DNA of 64,000 bases from Candidatus Poribacteria bacterium (GTDB lineage Bacteria; Poribacteria; WGA-4E; WGA-3G). The notes beneath the pieces were generated by a model. That model was given only the letters and a program-made list of their open reading frames with translations. It was not told the DNA's origin and did no database searches. The DNA is taken from assembly GCA_965116815.1 (NCBI GenBank), contig OZ220722.1, positions 2,293,941 through 2,357,940 on the forward strand, read 5' to 3'. This document shows positions 6,208 through 60,871 of this stretch, in pieces (positions within the stretch are counted from its first letter, which is position 1; each line of letters starts with the position of its first letter). The translations under genes and the position numbers were made by a program.

Positions 6208-6299
6208 TTGCGATTTCTAAATCTCGGCGTTGTGGGGAAACCGTGTTCCCTTGCCGTCGCCTTCTGCTTGTTTATCAATTTGTAGGAGAACCCAAAGAA

Positions 6300-7979
6300 A
6301 TGTCCAATAAACTGAAACCCCGAAGTTATGCGATTACCGATGGCCCCGACCGCGCTGCTGCACGCACCATGCTCATGTTCGGCGATGGCGGGCTTTCCCC
6401 TGACGACCTTGACAAGCCGATTATCGGGGTTGCCAATACATGGATCGAAATCGGTCCCTGTAACTTCCACTTAAGAAGACTTGCCGCCAAAGTCAAAGAG
6501 GGTATCCGTGCTGCAGGTGGAACACCGCTTGAATTCAACACCGTTAGCATCTCCGATGGTATCACGATGGGCACTGAGGGTATGAAAACCTCGCTTATCA
6601 GTCGGGAAATCATCGCCGATTCGATTGAGTTGGTTTCTATCGGCAACATGTTTGATGCTGTCGTTGCTCTCTGTGGGTGCGATAAGACCGTCCCTGGCAC
6701 CGTCATGGCGTTGGCACGGTTAGATATCCCATCGCTCACCCTCTACGGCGGTTCAATCATGCCGGGCAATTTTCAGGGACGCGATGTCACCATCCAAGAT
6801 GTATTTGAAGCGGTCGGGCAGCATGCAGAAGGCACAATCACGGTCGAAGAATTGGACGATCTAATTAGTAAAGGGTGTCCCGGTCCGGGGGCATGTGGTG
6901 GACAATTTACCGCCAATACCATGGCAACAGCGGTTGAGATGTTAGGTATTGCCCCCTTGGGAAGTGGAAGTGTCCCTGCTGTCGCTGAAGACAAGGATCA
7001 GGAGGCATACAAAGCTGGACAACTCGTCATGGACATGCTCGCTGATGATCGGCGGCCGAGTCAGATTATCACTCGTAAGTCGCTTGAAAATGCGATTACC
7101 TCTGTCGCTGCAACTGGAGGCTCTACGAACGGTGTTTTGCACCTCCTCGCTATCGCCTACGAAGCACAGATTCCGTTGACGCTTGAGGATTTCCACGCCA
7201 TTAGTCAAAGGACCCCGGTATTGGCGGATCTCAAACCCGGTGGACAGTTTGTTGCCACCGATCTCTATGAAGCGGGTGGCATTCCATTCTTGGCAAAACG
7301 CTTGGCAGAAGCAGGCTTGCTCCACACTGACGAACTTACCGTCACAGGTAAAACCATCGGTGTAGAGGCAAACGCAGCGACCGAAACTGAAGAACAACAG
7401 GTCGTCAGACCAGTAAAGGCACCGCTCAAACCGACGGGTGGCTTTGCGATCTTGAGGGGGAACCTCGCTCCGGATGGGTGTGTCATCAAGTTGGCAGGAC
7501 AGGATAAAACGCTCCATCGCGGTCCCGCACGTATCTTTGAACGTGAAGAGGATACCTTTGCCGCCATCAAAGGTGGAGAGATTAAACCGGGTGACGTTGT
7601 CGTTATCCGTTATGAGGGACCCACTGGTGGTCCCGGTATGCGCGAGATGTTGGGCGTAACGGCAGCAATCGTCGGTGCAGGCTTGAGCGAAGATGTTGCT
7701 CTCTTAACCGATGGCAGATTCTCTGGTGCAACACACGGTTTCATGATTTGCCACGTCGCGCCCGAAGCAGCAAGAGGCGGTACGATTGCTATCCTCCAAG
7801 AAGGCGACGAAATCGTAATTGACGCAAAGGAACGACGACTCGACGTTCAACTCTCCGAGGCGGAAATTCAAGCACGCTTTGAACAGTGGACACCACCTGA
7901 ACCGCGCTATGCACGCGGAGTTATGGCAAAGTATGCGAATTCGGTTTCTTCTGCCTCTGAAGGTGCTGTGACCGGATAA
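6300..7979 (+). CDS. ilvD: dihydroxy-acid dehydratase
   Basis: IlvD/EDD family motifs (CDKTVPG, SGATHG...[12 protein letters not shown] Fe-S cysteines). The start is set at MSNKLKP with an AGGAGAA RBS. Confidence 0.92.
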
Positions 7980-13648: not shown

Positions 13649-13799
13649 GTTTACCTTCCTTTGATGACGAACTACCGACTGCGGACTGCTGATAGCCAAG
13701 AAACAGAGATTGACAAACGGGTTTCCTGATGGTATAATTTCTTAACGAATGAGTCAATGCCGACTGAACGGGAACCGCAAAAAAACAGAAGGAAATACA

Positions 13800-15695
13800 A
13801 TGAGCGCATTTTACATCACCACACCCATCTACTACGTCAACGATGAACCGCATGCGGGACACGGTTATAGTACCATTGTCGCAGATACTTTGGCGCGCTA
13901 TCACCGCCTCAAAGGCGATGAGGTTTTCTTTTTGACCGGCGTTGATGAGCATGGTGCAAAGATACATAAAGCCGCTGAAGAAGCAGGACTTACCCCGCAA
14001 GATTATTGCGATAAAATAGCACCTACATTTATCAAATTTTGGAAACGGCTGAATATCTCGCACGACGTCTTCATGCGTACGACAAGCGATATGCACAAGC
14101 GCGGCGCAGCGAAATTCCTCACCGCCCTCTACGACAGTGGGGATGTCTACAAAGGGGCTTATAAAGGATACTATTGCCTCCCATGTGAGCGGTTTGTTCC
14201 TGAAAAAGAATTGACGGACGAAAAAATCTGCCCGATTCATAAATTGCCCCTGGAATGGCTCGAAGAGGAAAACTATTTCTTTAGACTCTCCAAGTATCAA
14301 GATCGCTTACTCGCGCATTTCCACGAGAATCCTGACTTTGTCTACCCCGCAGCCCGGCGCAATGAGCTCCTGAGCGTCCTCAACTCTGGATTGGAAGATA
14401 TAAGCATATCTCGCTCCTCTGTCTCATGGGGAATCTCTTTACCGTTTGATCCTGAGCATATCGTCTACGTCTGGATTGAAGCATTGATGAATTATATGAC
14501 AGCACTTGGTTATGAAACTGATAGTGAGCAGTATCGCACTTTTTGGCCCGCTGATGTCCACATGATGGGGAAGGACATCACCCGCTTCCATGCGCTGATC
14601 TGGCCCGCAATGTTGATGGCTGTAGACTTGCCACTACCCAAGCAGATTGTCGCACACGGGATGATGACGAAAGATGGCGAAGCGTTGAGTAAAACGCGAG
14701 GTATTTTCGTTGACCTGGATGCAGACATCGCGCAATACGGATTGGATGCGTTCCGCTATTACCTTCTGCGTGAATTTAGTTTCGGCAACGATGGTGATTA
14801 CCGCCCTGCCCGTTTGCACGCCCGCTACAACGCCGATCTCGCGAACGATCTCGGTAACCTGCTCAATCGTGTTCTCGGTTTAGTCAACAAGAACTTTGAA
14901 GGGATTCCCACGCCGACAACACCGGGGGAATTCGACGATGAAATCGAAGCGATCGCGCAGACCACTATTGATCAATTAGACGCGCATATAAGCGCGTTCG
15001 CGTTCGACGCTGCGTTGGAAACCATCTGGGAGTTTGTCCGGCGTATCAATCGGTATGTCCAACAGACACAGGTCTGGACGCTGGCAAAGCCGGAGACGAA
15101 ACCGAGAATGGGCACCATCCTTTACAATAGTTTGGAGGCATTACGGTTCATCTCTGTGCTCATATCGCCTTTTGTTCCAGATACTGCTGAGAAAATTCAG
15201 ACACAGATCGGTCTGCCGGAATTTGATACCGTTGCCGAATGGGGACATTTGCCCGCAGGACTAACGGTCAGCAGAGGCGAACCTATTTTCCCGCGCGTTG
15301 ATACTAAACAGCAGAAACAGCCGCAACCGAAAACGGAAGCCGAACCGAAACAGAAAAAGACAGAAAAAACAAGCACCCTTATCTCCTTTGCTGATTTCCA
15401 AAAGTTGGATCTTCGGGTGGCATGTATCCTCGCTGCTGAGTCAATTGAAGGGACTGACCGGCTTCTCAAATTGCAGGTTGACCTCGGCACAGAGAAACGA
15501 CAACTGATCGCTGGGATTGCCGAACACTATACGCCAGAGGCATTGATAGGGAAACAGGTGATAGTCGTCGTGAACTTAGAACCCGCCACCATTCGCGGCG
15601 TTGAGTCGCAAGGTATGGTTCTCGCGGGGAGTGGTGACTCCGTGGTTTTGGCAACTCTTGAAACAGAAATGCCGCTCGGCACACAAATAAAATAG
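13800..15695 (+). CDS. metG: methionine--tRNA ligase (with a C-terminal EMAP/Trbp111-like tRNA-binding domain)
   Basis: Class I HAGH (HIGH) motif and KMSKS-like KTRG. The C-terminal LDLRVACI...KLQVDLG is the OB-fold tRNA-binding domain. Confidence 0.92.
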   Translation: MSAFYITTPIYYVNDEPHAGHGYSTIVADTLARYHRLKGDEVFFLTGVDEHGAKIHKAAEEAGLTPQDYCDKIAPTFIKFWKRLNISHDVFMRTTSDMHKRGAAKFLTALYDSGDVYKGAYKGYYCLPCERFVPEKELTDEKICPIHKLPLEWLEEENYFFRLSKYQDRLLAHFHENPDFVYPAARRNELLSVLNSGLEDISISRSSVSWGISLPFDPEHIVYVWIEALMNYMTALGYETDSEQYRTFWPADVHMMGKDITRFHALIWPAMLMAVDLPLPKQIVAHGMMTKDGEALSKTRGIFVDLDADIAQYGLDAFRYYLLREFSFGNDGDYRPARLHARYNADLANDLGNLLNRVLGLVNKNFEGIPTPTTPGEFDDEIEAIAQTTIDQLDAHISAFAFDAALETIWEFVRRINRYVQQTQVWTLAKPETKPRMGTILYNSLEALRFISVLISPFVPDTAEKIQTQIGLPEFDTVAEWGHLPAGLTVSRGEPIFPRVDTKQQKQPQPKTEAEPKQKKTEKTSTLISFADFQKLDLRVACILAAESIEGTDRLLKLQVDLGTEKRQLIAGIAEHYTPEALIGKQVIVVVNLEPATIRGVESQGMVLAGSGDSVVLATLETEMPLGTQIK

Positions 15696-19017: not shown

Positions 19018-19623
19018 ATGGCACATACATTACCAGCGCTCCCTTATGCACACGATGCTTTGGAACCGCACATTGACACACAAACAATGGAAATCCATCA
19101 CGGCAAACACCATCAGGGTTATGTCAACAACCTCAACGCTGCCTTAGAGGGACTCGGTGATCTCGCCGATATGGGTGTTCACGAACTGCTCGGCAATCTT
19201 GATCAAGTTCCAGAAGACAAGCGTCAAGCCGTCATCAACAACGGCGGCGGACACGCCAATCATTCACTCTTTTGGTCCATCATGAGCCCTAACAGTGGTG
19301 AGCCGGGCGGAGAAATTGCAGCGGCGATAACCTCTACCTTTGGATCACTTGAAGCGGCGAAAGAGGAGTTTACAACTGCCGCAACGACACGCTTCGGTTC
19401 TGGCTGGGCATGGCTCGTCCTTGGTGACAGTGGGTTGGAAATCTATTCCACAGCGAATCAGGACAGCCCAATCATGCAGGGACATACTCCACTTCTCGGT
19501 ATTGATGTCTGGGAACACGCATACTATCTGAAATACCAGAACCTCCGTCCTGCTTACGTTGAGGCGTGGGGGAACGTTATCAACTGGACCCGAGTCAACG
19601 AACTCTATGTGGCGAATGCCTAA
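19018..19623 (+). CDS. sodA: Fe/Mn superoxide dismutase
   Basis: N-terminal LP.LPYA.DALEP.I...HH.KHH..YV and C-terminal D.WEHAYY metal-ligand motifs. Confidence 0.93.
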
Positions 19624-19644
19624 CTTTTCGCAACAAGTTTAGGA

Positions 19645-19698
19645 TTTTGGGAGGGGTAGGCGCGAACAGCGTTTCAGACCTACCCTTTACTCCCAAAA
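19645..19698 (+). terminator. long hairpin (TTTTGGGAGGGGTAGG ... CCTACCCTTTACTCCCAAAA) just after the sodA stop. Probable terminator.
   Basis: A 16-20 bp imperfect inverted repeat about 20 nt after the stop. It lacks a clean T-run. Confidence 0.45.
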
Positions 19699-19874
19699 TA
19701 GCGGAGGTCTGCTGAATTAAGTTTTTTTGACATCGTTCTTTAAATGTGTTATACTTAAAGAGGAAATATAATGCTTTCAGCATGGCCGTGAAACTTACTA
19801 AAACGGCGTGCGTAATTAACATCTAAATAGATTACCCAAAAAAGGCGTTGAAGGGGAGGAGTAAGTCGTCTGGG

Positions 19875-20125
19875 CTTGCGAGAGATGGAGACTCATCGGC
19901 TGAAAGGTCTCCTCAAGTTTCCACGACTGAAGGTCGCCCCGGAGCTGCTCATCTGAACAACTGTAGCAATAAGTAAGGTGAGTCGGTGTGATGCCCGTTA
20001 TCGCATCCCAAAGAGTGCTCTTTCTCGGTAAATGAAAATGAGAAAGGGAATTGGAGTGGTACCACGGTAAGGTCAGTGCAAATGTCCTTCTCGTCTCCAT
20101 GTTTGGAACGAGAAGGTTTTTTAAT
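19875..20125 (+). ncRNA. candidate T-box riboswitch leader (Leu specifier CUC?) with an intrinsic terminator, upstream of ilvB-ilvN-ilvC
   Basis: The boxes occur in the canonical order. AGAGA (AG box) is at about 19881. GCUGA (GNUGA box) is at about 19899. CUCA lies 3' of the distal hairpin at about 19912. CCGUUA (F box) is at about 19995. AAUUGGAGUGGUACCACGG, at about 20049-20067, matches the T-box consensus AAUUAGGGUGGUACCGCGG at 16 of 19 positions. The terminator CCTTCTCGT-loop-ACGAGAAGG + T6 is at about 20086-20122. Confidence 0.5.
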
Positions 20126-20175
20126 TTCAACGACTCCCGTAGGGACGATCCCTACAATTCATGAGGAAAATTGGC

Positions 20176-21852
20176 ATGGAACTTTCAGGAGCGCAAATCC
20201 TTGTTGACAGTCTCAAGCGGGAAGGTGTCGAATATATCTTCGGTGTGAACGGTGGCGCGGCGATGCCGATTTTCGATGCCCTCTACAGTGAGACCGAGGT
20301 TAAATTGATACCGATGCGGCATGAACAAGGGGCTTCCCACGCCGCTGATGGCTACGCACGTGCCACTGGGGATGTCGGCGTTGCGCTCGCAACTTCCGGT
20401 CCCGGCGCAACGAATCTTGTCACTGGCATCGCAACCGCTTATATGGATTCGATTCCGATGGTTGCGATTACTGGACAGGTTTTCACCCATTATATCGGTA
20501 GCGATGCCTTCCAAGAGTGTGATGTTATCGGCGTAACACGTCCGATCTGTAAACATAGTTACCTTATCACAAGTTGCGATGAGGTAGCAGATGTCGTCGC
20601 TGAAGCGTTTCACATCGCGAAGACCGGAAAACCCGGTCCCGTAATTATTGACATTGCCAAAGACGCGCAGATTCACGAAGCACTGTTTCAATATCCAGAA
20701 ACAGTTGACATCCGTAGTTACAAGCCGCAAGTTCATGGTGATCCAGCACAAATTGCAAAGGCAGCAGCACTGATTAAAGAAGCGAAACGCCCCATGCTTT
20801 ATGCCGGTGGTGGTGTTGTACTCGCCAATGCCAGTGAGGAGCTGCGGCAACTCACTCTCAAAACCCAGATTCCGATTACTGTTACATTAATGGGACTCGG
20901 CGCATTTCCCGAAACGCATCCTTTAGCGATGGAAATGCCCGGAATGCACGGTTCTTGTTGCGCTAATTACGCTTTTACCGACGCTGATCTCGTTATCGCT
21001 ATTGGCGCAAGGTTCGATGACCGCGTTACGGGTGATCTCAGTAAATTCGCACCGAACGCGAAGAAAATCCACATCGATATCGACGCGTCCTGTATTGGAA
21101 AAAATGTACCGGTGGATGTTCCGATCGTAGGTGATGCGAAGAGTGTTCTGACAGAACTGAATAAACAGGTTGAGACAGCAGACATTGACCCATGGCGCGA
21201 CCAGATTCAGGAATGGAAGCAGAAGTACCCGTTTGAGTATGAGCAGAAAGCCGATAAGGTAATGCCGCAATATGTCATTGAGCAGATTTATGAGCATTAC
21301 AGCGATGCCATTGTCGTTGCGGATGTCGGACAGCACCAGATGTGGGCGGCACAATACTTCAAATTCACCGAACCGCGGCAGTGGCTCAACTCCGGCGGTC
21401 TCGGCACGATGGGATTCAGCCTCCCCGCCGCAATCGGTGCGCAGCTCGGATGTCCGGACAAAACCGTTGTCAACATCAACGGAGACGGCTCCTATATCAT
21501 GACGATCCAAGAATTGGTGCCAGCGATTACGATGAAACTGCCGATTAAAGTTTTCATCATCAACAACATGTACCTGGGGATGGTGCGCCAGTGGCAGGAA
21601 TTGTTCCACGGCAAACGCTACTCTGCTGTCGATTACCACGATAATCCGGATTTCGCCTTGCTCGCACAGGCATTCGGTGCCACAGGGCTGCGGGTTGAAC
21701 ACCCAGACGAGGTCGAACCCGCATTACAGAAGGCGAAAGGGATTACCGATGGTCCTGTGGTTATTGATTTCATCGTTGATGAAGAGGAGAATGTGTTCCC
21801 AATGGTGCCAGCGGGTGCTGGACTTGGAGATGTTATCCGCGGGCTATCCTAA
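20176..21852 (+). CDS. ilvB: acetolactate synthase large subunit (biosynthetic, TPP/FAD-dependent)
   Basis: Full-length AHAS large subunit (GPGATNLVTGIATAYMDSIPMV, TPP-binding GDGSY...NN). The start is set at MELSGAQ behind a GAGG RBS. The ORF-track ATG at 20161 is an alternative. Confidence 0.92.
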   Translation: MELSGAQILVDSLKREGVEYIFGVNGGAAMPIFDALYSETEVKLIPMRHEQGASHAADGYARATGDVGVALATSGPGATNLVTGIATAYMDSIPMVAITGQVFTHYIGSDAFQECDVIGVTRPICKHSYLITSCDEVADVVAEAFHIAKTGKPGPVIIDIAKDAQIHEALFQYPETVDIRSYKPQVHGDPAQIAKAAALIKEAKRPMLYAGGGVVLANASEELRQLTLKTQIPITVTLMGLGAFPETHPLAMEMPGMHGSCCANYAFTDADLVIAIGARFDDRVTGDLSKFAPNAKKIHIDIDASCIGKNVPVDVPIVGDAKSVLTELNKQVETADIDPWRDQIQEWKQKYPFEYEQKADKVMPQYVIEQIYEHYSDAIVVADVGQHQMWAAQYFKFTEPRQWLNSGGLGTMGFSLPAAIGAQLGCPDKTVVNINGDGSYIMTIQELVPAITMKLPIKVFIINNMYLGMVRQWQELFHGKRYSAVDYHDNPDFALLAQAFGATGLRVEHPDEVEPALQKAKGITDGPVVIDFIVDEEENVFPMVPAGAGLGDVIRGLS

Positions 21853-21864
21853 TGATTTTAAGGG

Positions 21865-22040
21865 TCGTCAGTTATCGGTTATCAGTTACAAGAGGGTACC
21901 GTTAAACGAGGGGAAACACCCTATCAAAAACACCTCTTAACCGATGACCGAAAGGTTTTTCGGAGAAAAACCGAACCGATAACCGATAACCATAAAACCG
22001 ACAACTGAAAGCCTGCGCAGCAGGCGAACTGAAAACTAAA
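21865..22040. repeat. MITE/REP-like palindromic repeat, copy E2, inserted between ilvB and ilvN. It contains GTCAGTTATCGGTTATCAGTTACAAGAGGGT, the hairpin GGTTTTTCGGAGAAAAACC, the inverted partner AACCGATAACCGATAACC and the hairpin GCCTGCGCAGCAGGC.
   Basis: Same core and hairpin as E1 and E3. It makes a 193-nt spacer between genes that are normally adjacent. Confidence 0.6.
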
Positions 22041-22045
22041 AAAAA

Positions 22046-22546
22046 ATGAATCCAGAAGAACGACACATCTTTTCGGTATTGGTCGAAAACCGATTTGGTG
22101 TCCTTGCCCGTGTGGCAGGACTCTTCAGCGGGCGCGGCTTTAATATCGACAGTCTCAACGTCGCCGAGACGCATGACAAAAGCATTTCGCAGATAACCCT
22201 TGTCACACACGGTGATGCACAGATCATTGAACAGATCTACCACCATTTAAACAGACTCATTGACGTTATTGAGGTGACGGACCTCTCCACGGCTGGAACG
22301 CATGTTGAGCGAGAACTTGTTCTTATCAAGATCGCTACCGATGATCCTCAAAAACGTACCGAAGTTCTACAAGTCGCGGAGGTTTTCCGTGGGCGGGTTA
22401 TAGATATGAAACCCGCCTCCCTCGTCCTCGAAATTACAGGTGATGAGGGTAAATTGAAAGCTGCGATTGATATTTTCAATACGTACGGTATCCTTGAATT
22501 GGCGCGCACCGGCAAAATAGCGATGTTACGCGGATCAGAAAAATAG
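22046..22546 (+). CDS. ilvN: acetolactate synthase small (regulatory) subunit
   Basis: ACT domain start HIFSVLVENRFGVLARVAGLFSGRGFNI. 166 aa. Confidence 0.9.
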   Translation: MNPEERHIFSVLVENRFGVLARVAGLFSGRGFNIDSLNVAETHDKSISQITLVTHGDAQIIEQIYHHLNRLIDVIEVTDLSTAGTHVERELVLIKIATDDPQKRTEVLQVAEVFRGRVIDMKPASLVLEITGDEGKLKAAIDIFNTYGILELARTGKIAMLRGSEK

Positions 22547-22565: not shown

Positions 22566-23558
22566 ATGGCAACGATTTATTACGATAGTGATGCTAATTT
22601 TGATTTACTGAAAGAGCGTACCGTCGCTGTCGTCGGCTACGGTGCGCAGGGTCGCGCCCAATCGCTGAACCTTAAAGACAGCGGTGCAAACGTCGTCGTC
22701 GGGTTATACGAAGGCAGTCGCTCAAAGGAGCGAGCAGAGGCGGAGGGTTTGACCGTCAAAACCGTTGAGGAGGCCGCAGCGATGGCGGACATCGTTCAGG
22801 TCCTCATTCCTGACGAACGCCATGCCGCTGTTTACCGCGACCAGATTGCCCCAAACATGCAGGCAGGAAATATGCTGCTCGTCTCACACGGGTTCAGCGT
22901 CCATTTTGGGCAGATTGTGCCTGCCGGTGATATTGATGTCGCAATGATTGCGCCGAAGGGACCTGGCTCCCTCGTCCGTGAAGTGTTTGAAGGTGGTGGT
23001 GGTGTGCCGTGTCTTATCGCTATCCATCAAGATACCACGGGTCTCGCGCGCGATGTGGCACTTGCCTATGCCAGAGGCATCGGTGGCACACGTTCAGGGG
23101 TTATTGAAACCACATTTCGTGAGGAAACCGAAACCGACCTCTTCGGTGAACAAGCCGTCCTCTGTGGTGGAACTGCTGCACTCATTAAAGCCGCCTTTGA
23201 CACACTCGTCGAAGCCGGTTACCAGCCGGAAATGGCTTATTTTGAGTGTCTCCACGAACTCAAGTTGATTGTTGACTTGATTTACTCTGGCGGATTGAGC
23301 AAAATGCGGAATGATATTAGCAATACCGCCGAATTCGGAGACCTCACACGTGGTCCGCAGATTATTGACGACAACGTCCGAGACAAGATGCGCCAAATCT
23401 TAAAGGACGTGCAAGAAGGTGTCTTCGCACGAGAATGGGTTTTGGAGAACGAGGCGAACCAACCCGTGTTGGGTGCGCTCCGCCGGCAGGAAGAAGAACT
23501 CAAAATAGAAGAGGTCGGCAAGAACCTGCGCAGCATGATGAGTTGGCTTGACGAGTAG
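22566..23558 (+). CDS. ilvC: ketol-acid reductoisomerase (class I)
   Basis: Rossmann motif [17 protein letters not shown] plus the KARI C-terminal domain. Confidence 0.93.
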
Positions 23559-25346: not shown

Positions 25347-25826
25347 GTGTACTGCCAGGTCTGGGTAGGCGATATTACCTACGTCAGACTCAAGGGGCAC
25401 TTCGTCTATGTGAGTCTACTCATGGATGTCTTCACTCGCAGGATCAGAGGGTGGCAGGTGAGTCGACACCTGACCCAGCCGCTGACTTTGAGACCTTTAG
25501 AGCAAGCATTACGCCAAAGCGTCCCGGAGATCCATCACTCTGATCAAGGCGTTGAGTATCTTTCAAATGTCTATCTCTCGACGCTCACAGAGCATGGCGT
25601 TGAGATTTCTGTCGCCCGTCGCGGATGTCCTTGGGAGAACGGGTATGCTGAGAGACTCATCCGCACGCTCAAGGAGGAAGAAGTTTACCTAAATGACTAT
25701 CAGAACATTCACGAAGTGAAAGTCCGCATTGGGCATTTTATCACACAGGTGTATCATCAGAAACGCCCACATTCGGCGTTAGGGTATTTGACACCTATCG
25801 AATTCGAGCAGCAAAACTTGGATTAA
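25347..25826 (+). pseudogene. IS3-family transposase OrfB remnant (integrase catalytic core only; N-terminus and OrfA missing)
   Basis: WVGDITYV...HSDQG.EY...CPWENGYAERLIRTLKEE matches the IS3 DDE core. Only about 160 aa remain. No HTH/OrfA is left, and no obvious IRs. Confidence 0.75.
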
Positions 25827-30860: not shown

Positions 30861-30943
30861 GTTATAAGTTGTCAGTTATCGGTTGTCAGTTAAGAGCGTG
30901 TTCATTTACGGATAACCTCTTGTAACTGAAAACTGAAAACTAA
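30861..30943. repeat. MITE/REP-like palindromic repeat, copy E3 (GTTGTCAGTTATCGGTTGTCAGTTAAGAGCGTG ... ACCTCTTGTAACTGAAAACTGAAAAC)
   Basis: Same core as E1 and E2. It lies in the divergent region between the 377-aa gene and the PhyH gene. Confidence 0.55.
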
Positions 30944-31929: not shown

Positions 31930-33415
31930 AAACCGCCTTGCTTTAGCTGGGGGATACAGACTCGCTCTTGTGAATTAGACCAAAGCGTTTTTTGAAAAAA
32001 ACACTTGACATTTCTACGAAAATATGTTTTAATAGATGTATCACGTTGGCAGACATACCAAGCGTAACCGCAAGGTTACGTGTCTGCCTCCCCACTTGGT
32101 AGGGGTTAAAAGCGTGATACGTGAACATCCATGAAAACCTATAAACTGAAAATCCCTCACACTCAACAGTTAGACGCTCTGAATGCTGCGTCTGCGTCGG
32201 TTTGGAACGAGTGCCTGACTCTCAAATCCGTTTGGGATTATGCGCACGGCTATCGAAGCACCGGACGACTTGATCCACAATGTGAGTTGTGGATGGACAA
32301 GCAACTTTCCAAGTCCCAATCCCTACACTCACAGAGTATCCAAGCTGTCCGTGAGCGGTATTTCAAGAACAGAAAAGCCTATCGTGTGTTACGTAGGAAC
32401 GGCAATTCAACCGCCAAACCGCCGCATAAGTCTAAACGCTTTCAAACAACGACTTGGAAAAAGTCAGCCATCCGTTTCAAAGAAACATTGCTTGGTAAAG
32501 TCTTGATACTCTCTAATGGTAAAGGCACCCCTGCTTTAGAGATACCGCTTCCAAAGTTGTTTAACCTTTCTTTGACCCCTAATATTGTAATTGTGCACCT
32601 TGTCTATACTCGTGGACAATACGAACTTCATTTTGTCTATAACACCGAGACACCTGAAGTCTCTAAGGTTTCCGATGGCGTTGTGGGCGTTGATATTGGC
32701 GAGATACACCCGATTGTCAGCCATGACGGACATAACACACTGATTTTCAATGGGCGGTATATCCGAAGCCTATACCGATTGAGAAACAAGGTGATTGCCT
32801 CCTTTGGTAAAAAGATTGATAGGTGTAAACGCTATTCCAAACGTTGGTGGCATCTCGTGCGTAGGAAGTGGAAACGTCTTCAAAGGATTGACAATCAAAT
32901 CAAGGATGCGCTCCATCAACACACCACAAAGTTTGTGAAAAAATGTGGTGAGTCGGGTATAGGCACGATTGTCATTGGAGACCTAACGGGTATACGAGAC
33001 GATATCAACTATGGCAAACGTGCAAATCAGAAACTTCACCAGTGGGCTTTTGGTAAGGTTGCCGAGTTGATAACCTACAAAGCGAAATCTTTGGGTATCA
33101 AGGTTGACTTGATAGATGAGGCACATACCTCACAGACATGCCCAAAATGTGGCAACCGAAAGAAACCTACAAACCGAAACTACACCTGCAAATGCGGATT
33201 TAACTTTCACCGTGACGGTGTAGGTGCTATAAACATTCGCAAAAAGTATCTTGGACACTTCGGTGTCCCAGTAGTGGCGGACATGGATACCCAGGTTTCC
33301 ATGAAAATGACACCGCCCGTTGGATTTCGTCTCGAAGTCAAACGTTGCTCTGCCTGAGCAGAGAATGTTCCCACGAGGAACAAAAGAATCACCCTTGCTT
33401 TAGCTGGGTGAGTAT
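31930..33415 (+). mobile_element. IS200/IS605-family (IS1341-like) tnpB-only insertion sequence with direct-repeat-type ends
   Basis: The 16-mer CCTTGCTTTAGCTGGG occurs in direct orientation at about 31936 and about 33393, flanking tnpB. The LE carries a long hairpin GGCAGACAT...GTAACCGCAAGGTTAC...TGTCTGCC. The RE has the hairpin CTCTGCCTGAGCAGAG. No tnpA is present. Confidence 0.7.
32131..33357 (+). CDS. tnpB: TnpB (OrfB) RNA-guided endonuclease/transposase-accessory protein, RuvC-like plus Zn finger
   Basis: RuvC motifs VVGVDIGEIHP, IGDLTGIRDD and DEAHTSQTCPKCG, with the Zn finger CPKCGN...CKCG. Confidence 0.85.
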   Translation: MKTYKLKIPHTQQLDALNAASASVWNECLTLKSVWDYAHGYRSTGRLDPQCELWMDKQLSKSQSLHSQSIQAVRERYFKNRKAYRVLRRNGNSTAKPPHKSKRFQTTTWKKSAIRFKETLLGKVLILSNGKGTPALEIPLPKLFNLSLTPNIVIVHLVYTRGQYELHFVYNTETPEVSKVSDGVVGVDIGEIHPIVSHDGHNTLIFNGRYIRSLYRLRNKVIASFGKKIDRCKRYSKRWWHLVRRKWKRLQRIDNQIKDALHQHTTKFVKKCGESGIGTIVIGDLTGIRDDINYGKRANQKLHQWAFGKVAELITYKAKSLGIKVDLIDEAHTSQTCPKCGNRKKPTNRNYTCKCGFNFHRDGVGAINIRKKYLGHFGVPVVADMDTQVSMKMTPPVGFRLEVKRCSA

Positions 33416-46824: not shown

Positions 46825-47421
46825 TTAGAGAACATCATACGTAGGAGCGTTCTCTCCACTGTACTTCAGATTAGCACCTTTTTTGTACCACCCGACATCG
46901 TCTTCGAGCCAATCATCAATTTCATCATCATGTAAAGGCACTTCACGTAAAAGTGCAGATCTAGCAACTTTCTCATAAACGAGCACGCTCTCATGCGTAG
47001 TGGTGAAACCTCGATTGTCACGACTTCCTTTTAGATTAAGAACTGCTGCAAGGCATACAATAAACGTATCAGCCCCAAATATTTCGTCCATGATCATTCG
47101 CAAATGATGCTGTTCGTGATGGTCAATAGAAACGAAAATAACGCCATCATCGGAAAGCAATTCGCGCAGCAAATGCAGGCGCGGCCACATCATGCAAAGC
47201 CATTTGTCATGGAGTTCAAGGTCTTCACCATCAACCGGACTGTTTTGAGCAAACCACGCTTGCATCAGCGGGCTATTCACTCGGTCATTGTACACCCAAG
47301 CCTGACTGCCTGTATTATATGGCGGATCAATGTAGATGCACTTGATCTTGCCAGCGTATTTTGGGAGAAGTGCCTTTAGTGCATGTAGGTTGTCGCCGTG
47401 GATAATGAGGTTATCATTCAA
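46825..47421 (-). pseudogene. N6-adenine/N4-cytosine DNA methyltransferase fragment (Type III Mod / beta-class-like), C-terminally truncated
   Basis: DNLHALKAL...IKCIYIDPPYNTG (motif IV DPPY) and HESVLVYEK. It stops after 198 aa, with no TRD or motif I. It begins with TTG directly after a poly-C tract. Confidence 0.7.
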
Positions 47422-47563: not shown

Positions 47564-48412
47564 TTAAAAAATCTTATTCATATCAACAGGAAAACCTGCA
47601 TTTTTGATTTCTTGACCGAGTTTCAATTTCCAGTCTCCGCTATCCATAGGCACGTAGATTACGCCATCAATATCTGAGGGTTTCTCTATTTTTCCTTTGA
47701 AGAGCGGACATACTCGTTCACGACCCAGTTTTCCCATGAAATAACCGAGTTCAAAAACAACGTTCTGACGGGCTCTCGGTTTGCTTTCGTTCTCAATTTT
47801 ATCTTTTAAGGCACCAATATCGTCAGGTGTGAGTAGAACGATTGCAAATCCTGCATTACCGGCGTATTTTTCAAGCTTCTCAATGATCGTTAGTCCACTA
47901 CTGGGCTATTCGTGAAGGATAGTTACCTTTAAGCCCAATCTCTCTACAAACCTCGCAACGGTTTCTTTAACCCCATCATCGCGTCCGTGTACGATGAATA
48001 CTTCGTTACCCGAGATGAGCGGAAATGTGTCTGATGATTCATCGTACAGTTCAAGTTGATCCTGAATTCCCATTAGGTAATTGATATCCCTGTCTACATT
48101 TTCTCTGTATCTAATCAAATCCTTTGAAAACTCGACTCTTTCCTCCCTATTTGGAGACGAAACTATTCCCATAGGGTAAAAAATGCAGGCTCTTTCGTAT
48201 TCTTCTGCAACTAACGTCCCATCAAATAGGTGCAACAAAAGGTTTTTATTATGCCGTGACCAGTTTCCATGATCATTTCGAGCACGACTATATTCATCTC
48301 GTGCATCAATTTGTCTATCGCGGAGTTGTTGCCCTTTATCAATTTGCTCTTGTATTTTCTTCTCGGTTCCCTCTCTACTCACAAGCAATTTTGGAAGCGT
48401 TTTATCTTTCAT
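47564..48412 (-). pseudogene. TIR-like (COG4271/DUF2321-type, Cap12/PycTIR-like) protein with a novel ~130-aa N-terminal domain, interrupted by one in-frame TAG
   Basis: The ORF-track piece 47906-48412 ends ...[31 protein letters not shown]. The same frame continues [29 protein letters not shown]...RARQNVVFELGYFMGKLGRERV... to a TAA at about 47564. The paralog has CAG (Q) where this gene has TAG. Confidence 0.6.
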
Positions 48413-48861
48413 AGTTTCTCCTCAATAGGCAGTCCAGCGTTTTGCATGCCTTGACTGAGTTTCAGTTTCCAATCATCTGCACCATCCATGGGTACATAGA
48501 CTACGTTAGGAATATATGATGGTAATTCAACACCTTCTTTGTAGAGGATACACACTCGTTTATCGCCTAACCCCCCGAGGAGATAACCGAGCTCAAAGAT
48601 AACGTTTTGGCGGGCCCTAGGTTTCCGTTGTCCTGTAGCTTTTGAGGACCCAACATCGTCCGGTGTCAACAAGACAATTGCGAAACCCGCTTCATCTGCC
48701 TGTTCTTCAAACTTATCAATGATTGTTCGTCCCTTACTGGGTTGTTCGTCAAGAACGGTTGGCTTTAAACCCAACGTCTCTACAAATTTGGAGACGGCTG
48801 TTTTGGCTTCATCATCATGCCCATGGGCGATAAACACTTTCGATTGAGTTTTCACATTCAT
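48409..48861 (-). CDS. stand-alone TIR-like domain protein (COG4271/DUF2321-type)
   Basis: [20 protein letters not shown]...[18 protein letters not shown]...[10 protein letters not shown]...[32 protein letters not shown]. Its stop overlaps the next gene's ATG (ATGA). Confidence 0.65.
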
Positions 48862-55366: not shown

Positions 55367-57004
55367 ATGAAAGCGTCAGAACTGATCGTTAAATGCTTAG
55401 AAAATGAAAACGTTGATTATATTTTCGGATTACCGGGTGAGGAAAACCTGGATTTAATGGATGCCTTATTGGGATCCGATATTCAATTTATTCAGACTCG
55501 CGATGAACGGGGTGCCGCCTTTATGGCGGATGTCTACGGACGACTCACTGGGCGCGCCGGTGTTTGTCTCTCTACTCTCGGTCCCGGAGCCATGAACCTC
55601 GTCACAGGAGTTGCTGATGCCAATATGGATAGGGCACCGCTCGTTGCAATCACTGGACAGGCGAGCCTCGACAGGATGCACAAAGAATCGCATCAATATA
55701 TGGATGTGGTTTCTGTCTTCAAACCGATGACAAAATGGAATACACTCCTCCACCTCCCTGAAATCATACCCGAATCGGTCAGCAAAGCGTTTAAGGTCGC
55801 GACGGCAGAAAAGCCGGGGGCGACACACATCGATTTTCCAGAGGATGTCGCGAAAATGGAAATTAGCGCGGAACCTGTCCCACATGACTTTCCGAGCGAA
55901 GCGGAACCCGTTGCGTCCTGTTTGGCACGCGCCGCCCAGTTGATTAACGACGCAAAGCAACCTATTATTCTTGCGGGGAATGGCGTTGTCCGTCAAGGTG
56001 CCTCTCGAATTCTGACGCAATTTGCTGAACTGACGAATATCCCGGTTGCCCATACCTTCATGGGCAAAGGCAGTATTCCGTGGACGCATCGCCTCTCGCT
56101 CCTCAGTGTCGGGTTGCAAGCAAACGATTTCGTTTCTTGTGGATTTGATCGGGCAGACCTCGTTATCGCAATCGGCTATGATATTGTCGAATATCATCCG
56201 CGCCTCTGGAATCCCGATCGGAACAAGAAACTTATCCATATTGACACGGAACCGAGTGAAAGCGATGCCGCTTATGTTACGGATGTCGAAATGGTCGGTA
56301 ACATTCGACAGAGCCTTAGACATTTGATGGCACAAGAAATCTATCCTAAAGATTCGGAGTATGCCTCAAACACCTTGCGGAAAATCATACTCGATCAACT
56401 CGACCAACACCGCGATGATACAGAGTTTCCGATGAAGCCACAAAAAATTTTGAGTGATGTCCGCTCCGTTCTTGCTGAAGATGACATTCTCATCTCCGAT
56501 GTTGGCGCACACAAAATGTGGATTGCCCGCATGTATCCATGCTACCAACCCAATACGTGCATCATCTCTAATGGGTTCGCCTCCATGGGGATTGCGTTAC
56601 CCGGGGCTTTCGTCGCCAAACTTATCTACCCAGAGCGTAAATGTTTGGCAATCTGCGGGGACGGTGGGTTCATGATGAACTCACAGGAACTCGAAACGGC
56701 AACGCGAACCGGTGTGCCGTTTGTTACACTTATCTTCAATGATGAGGCTTACGGACTTATTGAGTGGAAACAGATGAACGGTTTTGGTAGACCTGCACAC
56801 ATCGATTTCACGAATCCCGATTTTGTTAAATACGCCGAAGCCTTCGGTGCCAAGGGCTATAGAGTTGAAGGGAGTGACGAACTGGTACCTATACTCAAAG
56901 ATGCGTTCAGTCAGAAAGTGCCTTCGGTTATCGATTGTCCGGTTGATTATTCTGAGAACCTGCGTTTAACCGACGAACTTGGGCACCTAACATGTCCTAT
57001 TTAA
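55367..57004 (+). CDS. thiamine-pyrophosphate enzyme, acetolactate-synthase-like (AlsS/IlvB paralog)
   Basis: GPGAMNLVTGVADANMDRAPLVAITGQ and the C-terminal TPP-binding GDGGF...NDEAYG. It is distinct from the ilvB at 20176. Confidence 0.75.
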   Translation: MKASELIVKCLENENVDYIFGLPGEENLDLMDALLGSDIQFIQTRDERGAAFMADVYGRLTGRAGVCLSTLGPGAMNLVTGVADANMDRAPLVAITGQASLDRMHKESHQYMDVVSVFKPMTKWNTLLHLPEIIPESVSKAFKVATAEKPGATHIDFPEDVAKMEISAEPVPHDFPSEAEPVASCLARAAQLINDAKQPIILAGNGVVRQGASRILTQFAELTNIPVAHTFMGKGSIPWTHRLSLLSVGLQANDFVSCGFDRADLVIAIGYDIVEYHPRLWNPDRNKKLIHIDTEPSESDAAYVTDVEMVGNIRQSLRHLMAQEIYPKDSEYASNTLRKIILDQLDQHRDDTEFPMKPQKILSDVRSVLAEDDILISDVGAHKMWIARMYPCYQPNTCIISNGFASMGIALPGAFVAKLIYPERKCLAICGDGGFMMNSQELETATRTGVPFVTLIFNDEAYGLIEWKQMNGFGRPAHIDFTNPDFVKYAEAFGAKGYRVEGSDELVPILKDAFSQKVPSVIDCPVDYSENLRLTDELGHLTCPI

Positions 57005-59920: not shown

Positions 59921-60871
59921 ATGCCTACAGGACGGATTAAGTATTACAATTTCGATAAAGGCTTCGGGTTTATCGCGCAAGATAGTAGTGACGCTGATGT
60001 CTTTTTACACAGCTCCGCTATTAAGCAGCCTGAATATGAAGAACTTCGTGTCGGGCAGCGCGTAAAATACAACATTATTGAAGGCGAGAAGGGACTCGTT
60101 GCCCAAAATGTCGAAGTATTATTGACACCGACGGAACGCCGATGGCTGCGGCAGGGAAAAGCAATTATTCCACGGGGTTATGCTGGCTTCCCTGCTCAGA
60201 ATCAGGGACAATTTCCCAGTGATGAGGCAATAACCGACACGAATCGCGAAAACGATAAATCAAGATCCGTTCGGAATCGCCGAGACCGGAATACACCCGT
60301 ATCACCTTCTGGGTCCAAAACAGAGCCTCAACACACCTCACCGAGAGATGCTGACGATTCCACAGCACAAGCACGAGAGGAACAAGCGCCGTCTTCAAAG
60401 CAACTCAGCTTTGGTGACCTTTATATTCTCAAGCAGATTAATTTTGAAACGTCTATGTTTTTCGCGTTGTATAACCACGTGCAGTTGCCTGCTACCGTCC
60501 TTGAAATGACGCTCTCTACTTTGACGCTCAACAGCAATGGAAAGAAACAGCACGTCGCGAAAACAGATGTTAAATACTGCTATAAAGATGTTGATGCGGA
60601 AAGGGTTCAGGCTTCTGTTGCTATTGATGACGCTGTGAAAGCACAGCAATTGACGCAACTCGCGCCTGACGCACAGGCACCTGAGATTGATACGGAAGCC
60701 GTTCAACACGCCCGAAAAAATGGTACCCCGATTCAGGTTAACCTTCGCGAAGGTGAAATTTTTCGCGGGACTATAGATTGGGTCAGTCCGTATGAGATTA
60801 AGCTCATTTTAGAGAACGGCGCAAAGGTCGTTATCTTTCGGCATGCTATCCACAGTTTTTCCGTAGGTTAG
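59921..60871 (+). CDS. cold-shock-domain protein with a ~250-aa C-terminal extension
   Basis: N-terminal GRIKYYNFDKGFGFIAQD...VFLH (RNP1/RNP2 of CspA), followed by a basic/Ser-rich linker and a C-terminal beta-rich domain. Confidence 0.7.
   Translation: MPTGRIKYYNFDKGFGFIAQDSSDADVFLHSSAIKQPEYEELRVGQRVKYNIIEGEKGLVAQNVEVLLTPTERRWLRQGKAIIPRGYAGFPAQNQGQFPSDEAITDTNRENDKSRSVRNRRDRNTPVSPSGSKTEPQHTSPRDADDSTAQAREEQAPSSKQLSFGDLYILKQINFETSMFFALYNHVQLPATVLEMTLSTLTLNSNGKKQHVAKTDVKYCYKDVDAERVQASVAIDDAVKAQQLTQLAPDAQAPEIDTEAVQHARKNGTPIQVNLREGEIFRGTIDWVSPYEIKLILENGAKVVIFRHAIHSFSVG

What the first reader, a model, noticed from the sequence alone, without database searches (positions are those of the whole stretch)
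19875..20125. Probable Leu-type T-box riboswitch controlling ilvB-ilvN-ilvC
The 540-nt sodA-ilvB spacer carries all four T-box leader boxes in the right order. AGAGA is at about 19881. GCUGA, inside a distal hairpin GGAGAC...GUCUCC, is at about 19899. CCGUUA is at about 19995. The T-box core AAUUGGAGUGGUACCACGG at about 20049 matches the consensus AAUUAGGGUGGUACCGCGG at 16 of 19 positions. An intrinsic terminator (9-bp stem + U6) follows at about 20086-20122, about 40 nt before the ilvB start. A CUC-A triplet (Leu codon plus the conserved purine) sits immediately 3' of the distal hairpin at about 19912. The UGGU bulge would pair with an A73 discriminator, as in tRNA-Leu, -Ile and -Val. T-box control of ilv is a Firmicutes hallmark and would be notable in this lineage.
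Basis: partly seen in the sequence, partly recalled or inferred. Interest (0 to 1): 0.65.

Follow-up and report, generated by a model that had tools for sequence, protein, structure and literature searches.

The report
Valine-sensing T-box leader of ilvBNC
The spacer before the branched-chain amino-acid genes ilvB-ilvN-ilvC holds a genuine, complete T-box riboswitch in an uncultured Poribacteria bacterium, but its codon matches valine tRNA (GUC), not leucine tRNA as first proposed; it is an ordinary member of a well-known RNA family in an unusual phylum.

Summary
The Rfam T-box model (RF00230) matches window 19839-20101 end to end at 112.8 bits (gathering score 93, E 3.8e-24), and it is the only RNA-family hit in the 64 kb. 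The window comes from a Candidatus Poribacteria bacterium. The same leader precedes ilvB in every Poribacteria relative fetched that had upstream sequence. Across 11 distinct leaders, 94.5% of pair cells in the canonical T-box fold are paired (42-51% when slid), and 24 of 56 pairs show compensatory changes.

The Leu assignment is wrong. The specifier loop reads GAA-N-GUC-G (19929-36): N varies, while GUC and the following purine are invariant. The bulge UGGU fits the A73 discriminator of tRNA-Val.

The antiterminator (-13.5 kcal/mol) and the terminator (-19.0 kcal/mol, plus U6) share one strand. All 12 leaders checked keep a terminator.

Verdict: a canonical transcriptional Val T-box, a new member of a known kind. 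Points of mild interest are the phylum and a GUC/AUC specifier polymorphism between 99.6%-identical metagenomic strains. Function is inferred, not tested.

The parts
19727..19755 (+). Sigma-70-type promoter-like site: TTGACA, 17 nt (with TG), TATACT. The transcript would start near 19762.
   Evidence: 11 of 12 matches. The same TTGACA-N17-TATACT site is seen upstream of the T-box in L086 and L090. No experimental evidence.
19839..20122 (+). Whole T-box leader: stem I, stem II, IIA/B pseudoknot, stem III, antiterminator/terminator.
   Evidence: RF00230 at 112.8 bits, E 3.8e-24. Covariation across 11 leaders.
19845..19945 (+). Stem I. It contains the GA/K-turn motif (UGA 19849-51 / GGA 19941-43), the specifier loop, the AG bulge (AGAGA 19881-85) and the distal hairpin 19887-19912 with its GNUG-box loop (GCUG 19899-902).
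   Evidence: CM alignment. Helices 1-5 are 86-100% paired, and 10 of 21 pairs show compensatory change.
19929..19936 (+). 3' side of the specifier loop, GAA-G-GUC-G: S-turn GAA, a variable spacer, the specifier codon GUC (Val) at 19933-19935 and the conserved purine G19936.
   Evidence: The spacer is G, U or C, while GUC-G is invariant in the 12 leaders examined in detail (window, L001 and ten distinct relatives). The register follows the TBDB rule.
19948..19982 (+). Stem II, 7 bp, with the S-turn elements GAA and AGUA.
   Evidence: helix 6: 5 of 7 pairs have changes on both sides.
19984..20007 (+). Stem IIA (19984-86 / 19995-97), the F-box CCGUUA (19995-20000) and the IIB pseudoknot GAUGC 19990-94 / GCAUC 20003-07.
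   Evidence: helices 7 and 8, 96-97% paired, one compensatory pair in each. RNAalifold finds the IIB helix on its own.
20018..20048 (+). Stem III.
   Evidence: helix 9: 6 of 7 pairs have changes on both sides.
20049..20099 (+). T-box sequence and antiterminator. Helices: 20052-56 / 20095-99, 20064-67 / 20091-94, and an extension 20069-72 / 20086-89. The 7-nt bulge UGGUACC is at 20057-63; its UGGU would pair with the ACCA-3' end of uncharged tRNA.
   Evidence: This is the minimum-free-energy fold of 20049-20101, -13.5 kcal/mol. UGGU is invariant. Helices 10 and 11.
20086..20122 (+). Intrinsic terminator: 9 bp, a 1-nt bulge, 4 bp, then U6. Its 5' strand is the 3' strand of the antiterminator.
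   Evidence: -19.0 kcal/mol. A hairpin followed by U5-7 is present in all 12 leaders checked.
20176..21852 (+). ilvB, acetolactate synthase large subunit. The likely start is ATG 20176 behind GAGGA 20164-68; an in-frame ATG also lies at 20161.
   Evidence: TIGR00118 at 796.9 bits. Relatives are 558 aa long.
22046..22546 (+). ilvN, acetolactate synthase small subunit.
22566..23558 (+). ilvC, ketol-acid reductoisomerase.

Best explanation
This is a canonical, full-length transcriptional T-box riboswitch specific for tRNA-Val. Transcription starts at a sigma-70-type promoter near 19727-55. In the roughly 360-nt leader, stem I presents the codon GUC (19933-35) to the anticodon of tRNA-Val(GAC) and docks the tRNA elbow on its distal platform. 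Stem II and the IIA/B pseudoknot back up the codon-anticodon contact. If the tRNA is uncharged, its ACCA-3' end pairs with UGGU (20057-60) in the T-box bulge and stabilises the antiterminator (20052-20099), so RNA polymerase reads through into ilvB-ilvN-ilvC. If the tRNA is charged, the more stable terminator (20086-20116 plus U6) forms and transcription stops about 55 nt before ilvB. Valine shortage therefore turns on the first common enzymes of branched-chain amino-acid synthesis. Shown here: family membership, fold, covariation, mutual exclusivity of the two helices, codon conservation, and conservation across Poribacteria. Inferred from the characterised Firmicutes T-boxes: tRNA binding, sensing of charging, and read-through.
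For: RF00230 matches the full model at 112.8 bits against a gathering score of 93, E 3.8e-24. Distinct Poribacteria relatives score at or above the gathering score (93-111 bits), and three more diverged ones score 74-76 bits with E about 1e-14. The canonical fold on 11 distinct leaders gives 94.5% of cells paired against 42-51% when slid by 1-3 columns. 24 of 56 pairs have changes on both sides, and 0 of 500 shuffles reach this. RNAalifold recovers stems I, II, IIB, III and the antiterminator independently, with 29 compensatory pairs. In the specifier loop GAA-N-GUC-G, N varies and GUC-G is invariant. This matches the TBDB '+0' frame, and GUC is a common Val specifier with 474 entries. UGGU is invariant, which fits the A73 of bacterial tRNA-Val (established knowledge). 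The antiterminator is the minimum-free-energy fold before the terminator's 3' strand exists, at -13.5 kcal/mol. The terminator is -19.0 kcal/mol and shares the strand 20086-20099. Both values fall in the TBDB ranges of -7.4+-4.2 and -19.5+-7.9. A terminator hairpin plus U-run is present in 12 of 12 leaders. The distance from the terminator to ilvB ranges from about 55 to about 300 nt, which excludes Shine-Dalgarno sequestration. The downstream genes are ilvB, ilvN and ilvC.
Against: There is no experimental evidence. No tRNA gene lies in the window or in the fetched relatives, so the cognate tRNA-Val(GAC) with A73 was not verified in this lineage. The purine after the codon is G rather than the more usual A. 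Single-sequence folding of stem I does not recover the canonical fold (z-score -0.24), so support for stem I rests on the model and on covariation. RNAalifold pairs two specifier nucleotides with the 5' side of the loop (invariant columns). ilvD and metG in the same window have no T-box, so the regulon may be a single operon.
Confidence: 0.85

Rival explanations
1. Leu-specific T-box, the first reader's reading: CUC at 19912-14 is the specifier and the switch senses tRNA-Leu.
For: A CUC-A triplet is present at 19912-15. UGGU also fits A73 of tRNA-Leu. Other ilvB T-boxes seen here, in Paenibacillus (L019, L031) and Armatimonadota (L010, L012), carry CUC in their specifier loops.
Against: In the CM alignment C19912 closes the distal helix (it pairs with G19887) and U19913-C19914 are a 2-nt linker, far from the S-turn and specifier loop. 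The triplet is CCC in L083 and CUA in L086. The actual specifier position holds an invariant GUC.
Confidence: 0.03
2. The switch responds to isoleucine tRNA or to more than one tRNA (Val and Ile, or the overlapping frames GGU Gly or UCG Ser), not to tRNA-Val alone.
For: Two metagenomic contigs (L115, L118) that are 99.6% identical to a GUC-bearing contig (L163) carry AUC at the same position. The lineage therefore tolerates an Ile specifier. tRNA-Ile also has A73. ilvBNC serves both Val and Ile synthesis.
Against: The window itself and 28 of the 30 ilvB-type leaders whose specifier could be read (12 examined in detail plus 18 from the metagenome scan) carry GUC. GGU exists only where the variable spacer happens to be G, and tRNA-Gly has U73, which does not fit UGGU. 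UCG would sit at the very end of the loop with no following purine, the least favoured frame in TBDB.
Confidence: 0.07
3. The element is an inactive relic, acts on translation rather than transcription, or the region encodes the 104-aa ORF on the minus strand (19816-20130).
For: A minus-strand ORF of 104 aa spans the element. T-boxes outside Firmicutes are often translational, as in the Actinobacteria ileS leader.
Against: Compensatory changes in 24 pairs show selection on the RNA fold. The minus-strand frame is broken by stops or frame-shifting indels in most relatives. All 12 leaders keep a stable hairpin followed by a U-run. The ilvB ribosome-binding site lies 40-300 nt beyond the terminator and takes no part in it.
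Confidence: 0.03

Closest known systems
T-box leader of the Bacillus subtilis ilv-leu operon (ilvBHC-leuABCD), specifier CUC (own knowledge); Paenibacillus relatives L019 and L031 were seen here
   Same: A T-box transcription-attenuation leader directly upstream of ilvB, with stem I, stem II, IIA/B, stem III, a UGGU bulge and an intrinsic terminator.
   Different: The specifier is Leu (CUC-A) there and Val (GUC-G) here. The operon here stops at ilvC and includes no leu genes. The host is Poribacteria, not Firmicutes. No sign of the additional protein regulators known in Bacillus was looked for.
Val-specific T-boxes of Firmicutes (GUA/GUC specifiers in TBDB; tandem GUC-A T-boxes before ilvB of Bacillus benzoevorans, L062)
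   Same: Same family, the same amino-acid class and the same specifier codon GUC, and in L062 the same target gene.
   Different: L062 has two T-boxes in tandem and an A after the codon. The Poribacteria leader is single, has G after the codon, has the core GGAGUGG instead of GGGUGG (with a compensating change in the partner strand), and has an extended upper antiterminator helix.
T-boxes outside Firmicutes: leuA leaders of Geobacter and Pelobacter, plus Chloroflexi, Deinococcus and Actinobacteria (Wels 2008, PMC2494555; Sun 2013, PMC3766115)
   Same: Isolated T-boxes on branched-chain amino-acid or tRNA-ligase genes in phyla where the family is rare.
   Different: The phylum is different and is not listed in those surveys. 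The Actinobacteria ileS type works on translation and has a reduced stem I, whereas this one is full-length and transcriptional.
Leader-peptide attenuators of ilvBN and ilvGMEDA in Escherichia coli (own knowledge)
   Same: The same logic: shortage of charged branched-chain tRNA relieves termination ahead of ilv genes.
   Different: Those sense charged tRNA through ribosome stalling on a leader peptide. Here the RNA binds the tRNA directly, and there is no conserved leader ORF.

Membership tests
T-box leader (Rfam RF00230) | Covariance-model score at or above the curated gathering score, over the full model | tested here: met
   112.8 bits against 93, model positions 1-219 of 219, E 3.8e-24.
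T-box leader (Rfam RF00230) | Stem I with GA/K-turn motif, S-turn specifier loop, AG bulge and distal loop | tested here: met
   All elements align to the model. Five stem I helices are 86-100% paired, with compensatory changes in 10 of 21 pairs.
T-box leader (Rfam RF00230) | Specifier codon followed by a purine at the 3' end of the specifier loop, matching the function of the regulated genes | tested here: met
   GUC-G at 19933-36, invariant in the 12 leaders examined in detail. Val matches ilvBNC.
T-box leader (Rfam RF00230) | Conserved T-box sequence with a 7-nt bulge starting UGGN | tested here: met
   UGGUACC at 20057-63, invariant.
T-box leader (Rfam RF00230) | Mutually exclusive antiterminator and terminator (or sequestrator) | tested here: met
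   The two share the strand 20086-20099, at -13.5 against -19.0 kcal/mol. A terminator plus U-run is present in 12 of 12 leaders.
T-box leader (Rfam RF00230) | Stem II and the IIA/B pseudoknot with the F-box (full-length class) | tested here: met
   Helices 6-8. The pseudoknot GAUGC/GCAUC has a compensatory G-C to A-U change in L092.
T-box leader (Rfam RF00230) | Host encodes a tRNA with the matching anticodon and discriminator base | not tested
   No tRNA genes in the window or in 18 related loci. Whole genomes could not be scanned with these tools.
T-box leader (Rfam RF00230) | Read-through that depends on uncharged cognate tRNA | not testable with these tools
   Requires in-vitro transcription or reporter assays.
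   The specifier position holds GUC. The CUC at 19912-14 lies in the distal stem I region and varies (CCC, CUA).

The most novel reading that the evidence does not exclude
The Val-type ilvB T-box is an old, vertically kept feature of the whole candidate phylum Poribacteria. It is found in marine pelagic, sponge-associated and other members with IlvB identity down to 76%, and in still more distant GC-rich lineages at about 60% identity. That would make it a T-box entrenched outside the Firmicutes/Actinobacteria/Chloroflexi/Deinococcus group rather than a recent import, and it is caught in the act of switching amino-acid specificity (GUC Val to AUC Ile) within one natural population.
Probability: 0.45. 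Interest if true: 0.45.

Novelty: new member of a known kind. Interest (0 to 1): 0.3.

Why it matters
The result gives Poribacteria, an uncultured phylum known mainly from sponge and marine metagenomes, a clear and conserved example of tRNA-sensing gene control. Surveys in the held literature report that T-boxes are more than 95% from Firmicutes, and none lists this phylum. The corrected specificity (Val, not Leu) matters for any regulon annotation. The GUC/AUC difference between nearly identical strains is a natural example of how a single base change can retarget a T-box. None of this changes what is known about how T-boxes work.

Tried and rejected
- Single-sequence folding of stem I gave a non-canonical fold with no significant stability, so I used covariation instead.
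- I scanned the window and 18 related loci for tRNA genes to find the cognate tRNA-Val. None was found.
- The genome-collection scan with IlvB returned only one Poribacteria genome (L001, about 91% DNA identity to the window) and 79 distant phyla. I reused those 79 as a survey of ilvB T-boxes in other phyla.
- The literature searches for 'T-box' with 'Poribacteria' and for 'Poribacteria' with 'riboswitch' returned nothing relevant. A multi-phylum search was uninformative. The Vitreschak 2008 and Gutierrez-Preciado 2009 papers are not held.
- The metagenome pattern scan returned many unrelated hits. These included leuA T-boxes with CUC (L098, L189) and coincidences inside high-GC coding sequence (an EWYRG peptide). 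Only about 25 of the 120 hits are ilvB leaders of this type.
- I considered and rejected four readings: a Gly reading (GGU), a Ser reading (UCG), a translational mechanism, and a minus-strand protein gene.
- I could not establish whether Poribacteria have further T-boxes. ilvD and metG in the window have none.

Full report
**1. The observation.**
- AGAGA at 19881-85.
- GCUGA at 19899-903, inside the hairpin GGAGAC/GUCUCC (19887-19912).
- CCGUUA at 19995-20000.
- AAUUGGAGUGGUACCACGG at 20049-67.
- A 9-bp stem plus U6 at 20086-20122.
- A CUCA at 19912-15.

The Rfam covariance model for T-box leaders (RF00230) matches 19839-20101 over its whole length, at 112.8 bits against a gathering score of 93 and E 3.8e-24. 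Nothing else in the window matches any Rfam family, even at E<=0.05. The flanking genes are as described. A superoxide dismutase lies at 19018-19623. Downstream are ilvB (20161 or, more likely, 20176 to 21852), ilvN (22046-22546) and ilvC (22566-23558). A GNAT acetyltransferase and an FG-GAP protein follow.

**2. Where the window comes from.** The IlvB protein is 99% identical to that of the MAG 'Candidatus Poribacteria bacterium jk18xAbins.24', although the DNA is only about 91% identical, so the window is from a related species. More than a hundred IlvB relatives at 76-98% identity exist. Those with names are all called Candidatus Poribacteria, which is a candidate phylum in the NCBI taxonomy.

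**3. Conservation of the leader.** I fetched 17 loci around ten of these relatives. One of them (L095) has almost no sequence upstream of ilvB and could not be tested. Twelve loci (eight distinct leaders) have a T-box at or above the gathering score (93-111 bits), in the same place between sodA and ilvB. L090, L096 and L097, which are more diverged, score 74-76 bits with E about 1e-14. L091 was not scored with the model but carries the same specifier motif.

I laid the canonical T-box fold on an alignment of 11 distinct leaders: five helices of stem I, stem II, stem IIA, the IIB pseudoknot, stem III, and the antiterminator with an extension. In this fold 94.5% of cells are paired, against 42-51% when the 3' partners are slid by 1-3 columns. 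24 of 56 pairs show changes on both sides, and none of 500 shuffles reaches this. RNAalifold, run without my structure, recovers the same stems and counts 29 compensatory pairs. No reading frame on either strand is conserved across the element. It is a structured RNA under selection.

**4. The specifier.** The model alignment puts the 3' side of the specifier loop at 19929-36, GAAGGUCG, directly before the CCCC strand that closes the loop. This is the consensus layout: the S-turn GAA, one spacer, the codon, then a purine. Across relatives the spacer is G, U or C, while GUC and the following G never change.
- That rules out GGU (Gly), which exists only where the spacer happens to be G.
- GUC sits in the position that TBDB gives priority to, nucleotides 2-4 from the 3' end of the loop.
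- GUC is a common Val specifier, with 474 TBDB entries.
- The T-box bulge reads UGGU in all leaders. It pairs with an A73 discriminator, as bacterial tRNA-Val has (own knowledge).

C19912 pairs with G19887 at the base of the distal helix, and U19913-C19914 form a linker. The triplet is CCC in L083 and CUA in L086. The element is therefore a Val T-box, not a Leu T-box.

**5. The switch.**
- The antiterminator pairs 20052-56 with 20095-99, 20064-67 with 20091-94, and 20069-72 with 20086-89.
- It is the minimum-free-energy fold of 20049-20101, at -13.5 kcal/mol.
- The terminator (20086-20116: 9 bp, a bulge, 4 bp; -19.0 kcal/mol) uses the same strand, 20086-20099, and is followed by U6.
- Both energies fall in the ranges TBDB reports for transcriptional T-boxes.

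All 12 leaders examined keep a hairpin of -17 to -38 kcal/mol followed by five to seven U residues. In L083 the hairpin carries a 55-nt insertion in its loop. The distance from the terminator to the ilvB start ranges from about 55 nt in the window to about 300 nt in L090. The ribosome-binding site is therefore not part of the switch, and control is at the level of transcription. A strong promoter-like site (TTGACA, 17 nt with TG, TATACT; 19727-55) lies upstream and recurs in L086 and L090.

**6. Most likely mechanism.** The steps below are inferred from the studied Firmicutes T-boxes. Uncharged tRNA-Val binds stem I through its anticodon and elbow. Its free ACCA end pairs with UGGU and locks the antiterminator, and ilvBNC is transcribed. 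Charged tRNA cannot do this, so the terminator forms. I could not find the tRNA itself, since there are no tRNA genes in the window or in the related loci.

**7. Comparison with what is known.** Published surveys find more than 95% of T-boxes in Firmicutes. The rest are in Actinobacteria, Chloroflexi, Deinococcus-Thermus and two delta-proteobacteria, and none was found in the single Planctomycetes genome examined (PMC2494555; PMC3766115). TBDB ascribes occurrences in other phyla to horizontal transfer. No held paper mentions a T-box or any riboswitch study in Poribacteria.

Among 79 distant ilvB loci, T-boxes precede ilvB in the following lineages:
- Paenibacillus: CUC, Leu.
- Bacillus benzoevorans: two in tandem, GUC, Val.
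- Limnochordales.
- Two Armatimonadota MAGs: CUC-like.
- One Atribacterota MAG: AUC, Ile.

T-box control of ilvB with Leu, Ile or Val specifiers is therefore not confined to Firmicutes. The present element passes every family feature that could be tested. It differs from the consensus only in detail: G rather than A after the codon, GGAGUGG rather than GGGUGG with a compensating change in the partner strand, and a longer upper antiterminator helix.

**8. Extra finding.** A metagenome scan with the core sequence found about 25 more ilvB leaders of this type, with IlvB identity of 59-96%. The specifier could be read in 18 of them. Sixteen have GUC. Two contigs of assembly JYMV01 (L115, L118) read AUC (Ile), while a third contig that is 99.6% identical over 7.5-10 kb (L163) reads GUC. 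This looks like a one-base specifier polymorphism within a population. It needs read-level confirmation.

**9. Verdict.** This is a real, conserved, canonical transcriptional T-box riboswitch. Its specificity is Val rather than Leu, its target is ilvBNC, and its host is Poribacteria. It is a new member of a known kind and is detected by the standard Rfam model. The interest is modest, resting on the phylum and the specifier polymorphism.

Noticed in passing
L115 about 6540-6560 and L118 (JYMV01000613.1, JYMV01017556.1) against L163 (JYMV01036803.1): These are orthologous ilvB T-box leaders on contigs 99.6% identical over 7.5-10 kb. They differ at the first specifier base: GAACAUCG (AUC, Ile) in two contigs and GAACGUCG (GUC, Val) in the third. 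This is a possible natural Val/Ile specificity switch.
   Followed up: partly
window 21857-21997; also 1650-1739 and 30868-30891: A REP/MITE-like imperfect inverted repeat built on GTTATCGGTTATCAGTT fills the unusual 190-nt ilvB-ilvN spacer. In most relatives ilvN overlaps or abuts ilvB. The motif occurs 6 times in the window against 0.04 expected, always between genes, and in none of the 97 loci held at the time of the search (L001-L097).
   Followed up: partly
L086 2270-2500, L083 2300-2500, L090 2240-2500: In several relatives, 200-300 nt of unexplained sequence lie between the T-box terminator and ilvB. In L086 this includes a long inverted repeat, GAAACCGAGTTTT...AAAACTCGGTTTC. The window has only about 55 nt there.
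   Followed up: no
window 6243-7979 and 13749-15695: ilvD (dihydroxy-acid dehydratase, above the TIGR00110 cut-off) and metG (methionyl-tRNA ligase) are typical T-box targets in Firmicutes. Neither has a T-box here, and their upstream spacers are too short for one.
   Followed up: yes
window 55367-57004: A second acetolactate-synthase-like large subunit (PRK08322 type, 792 bits). It has no small subunit next to it and no leader RNA.
   Followed up: no
window 19644-19699: A long inverted repeat, ATTTTGGGAG...CTCCCAAAAT (a 10-nt perfect core that extends further), lies just after the sodA stop. It is probably the sodA terminator and separates sodA from the ilvB promoter.
   Followed up: no
window 59921-60871: A 316-aa ORF combines an N-terminal cold-shock domain with a C-terminal Hfq-related domain, an uncommon pairing of two RNA-binding modules.
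   Followed up: no
window 25347-25826, 32131-33357, 46825-47421, 48409-48861: Signs of mobile and defence elements: an rve integrase fragment directly after the ilvBNC-GNAT-FG-GAP block, an IS605 OrfB/TnpB (Cas12f1-like TNB domain), a DNA methylase fragment, and a CAP12/Pycsar-type TIR effector domain protein.
   Followed up: no
L184 (metagenome contig; IlvB 70% identical): The T-box 3' half and the F-box are intact, but no normal stem I lies within 225 nt upstream. An inverted repeat (GTGAAACGTGATAA...) sits there instead, possibly an insertion into the leader.
   Followed up: no
L062 2042-2652 (Bacillus benzoevorans): Two tandem T-boxes, both with GUC-A (Val) specifiers, lie ahead of ilvB. 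Paenibacillus relatives instead have a single CUC (Leu) T-box.
   Followed up: no
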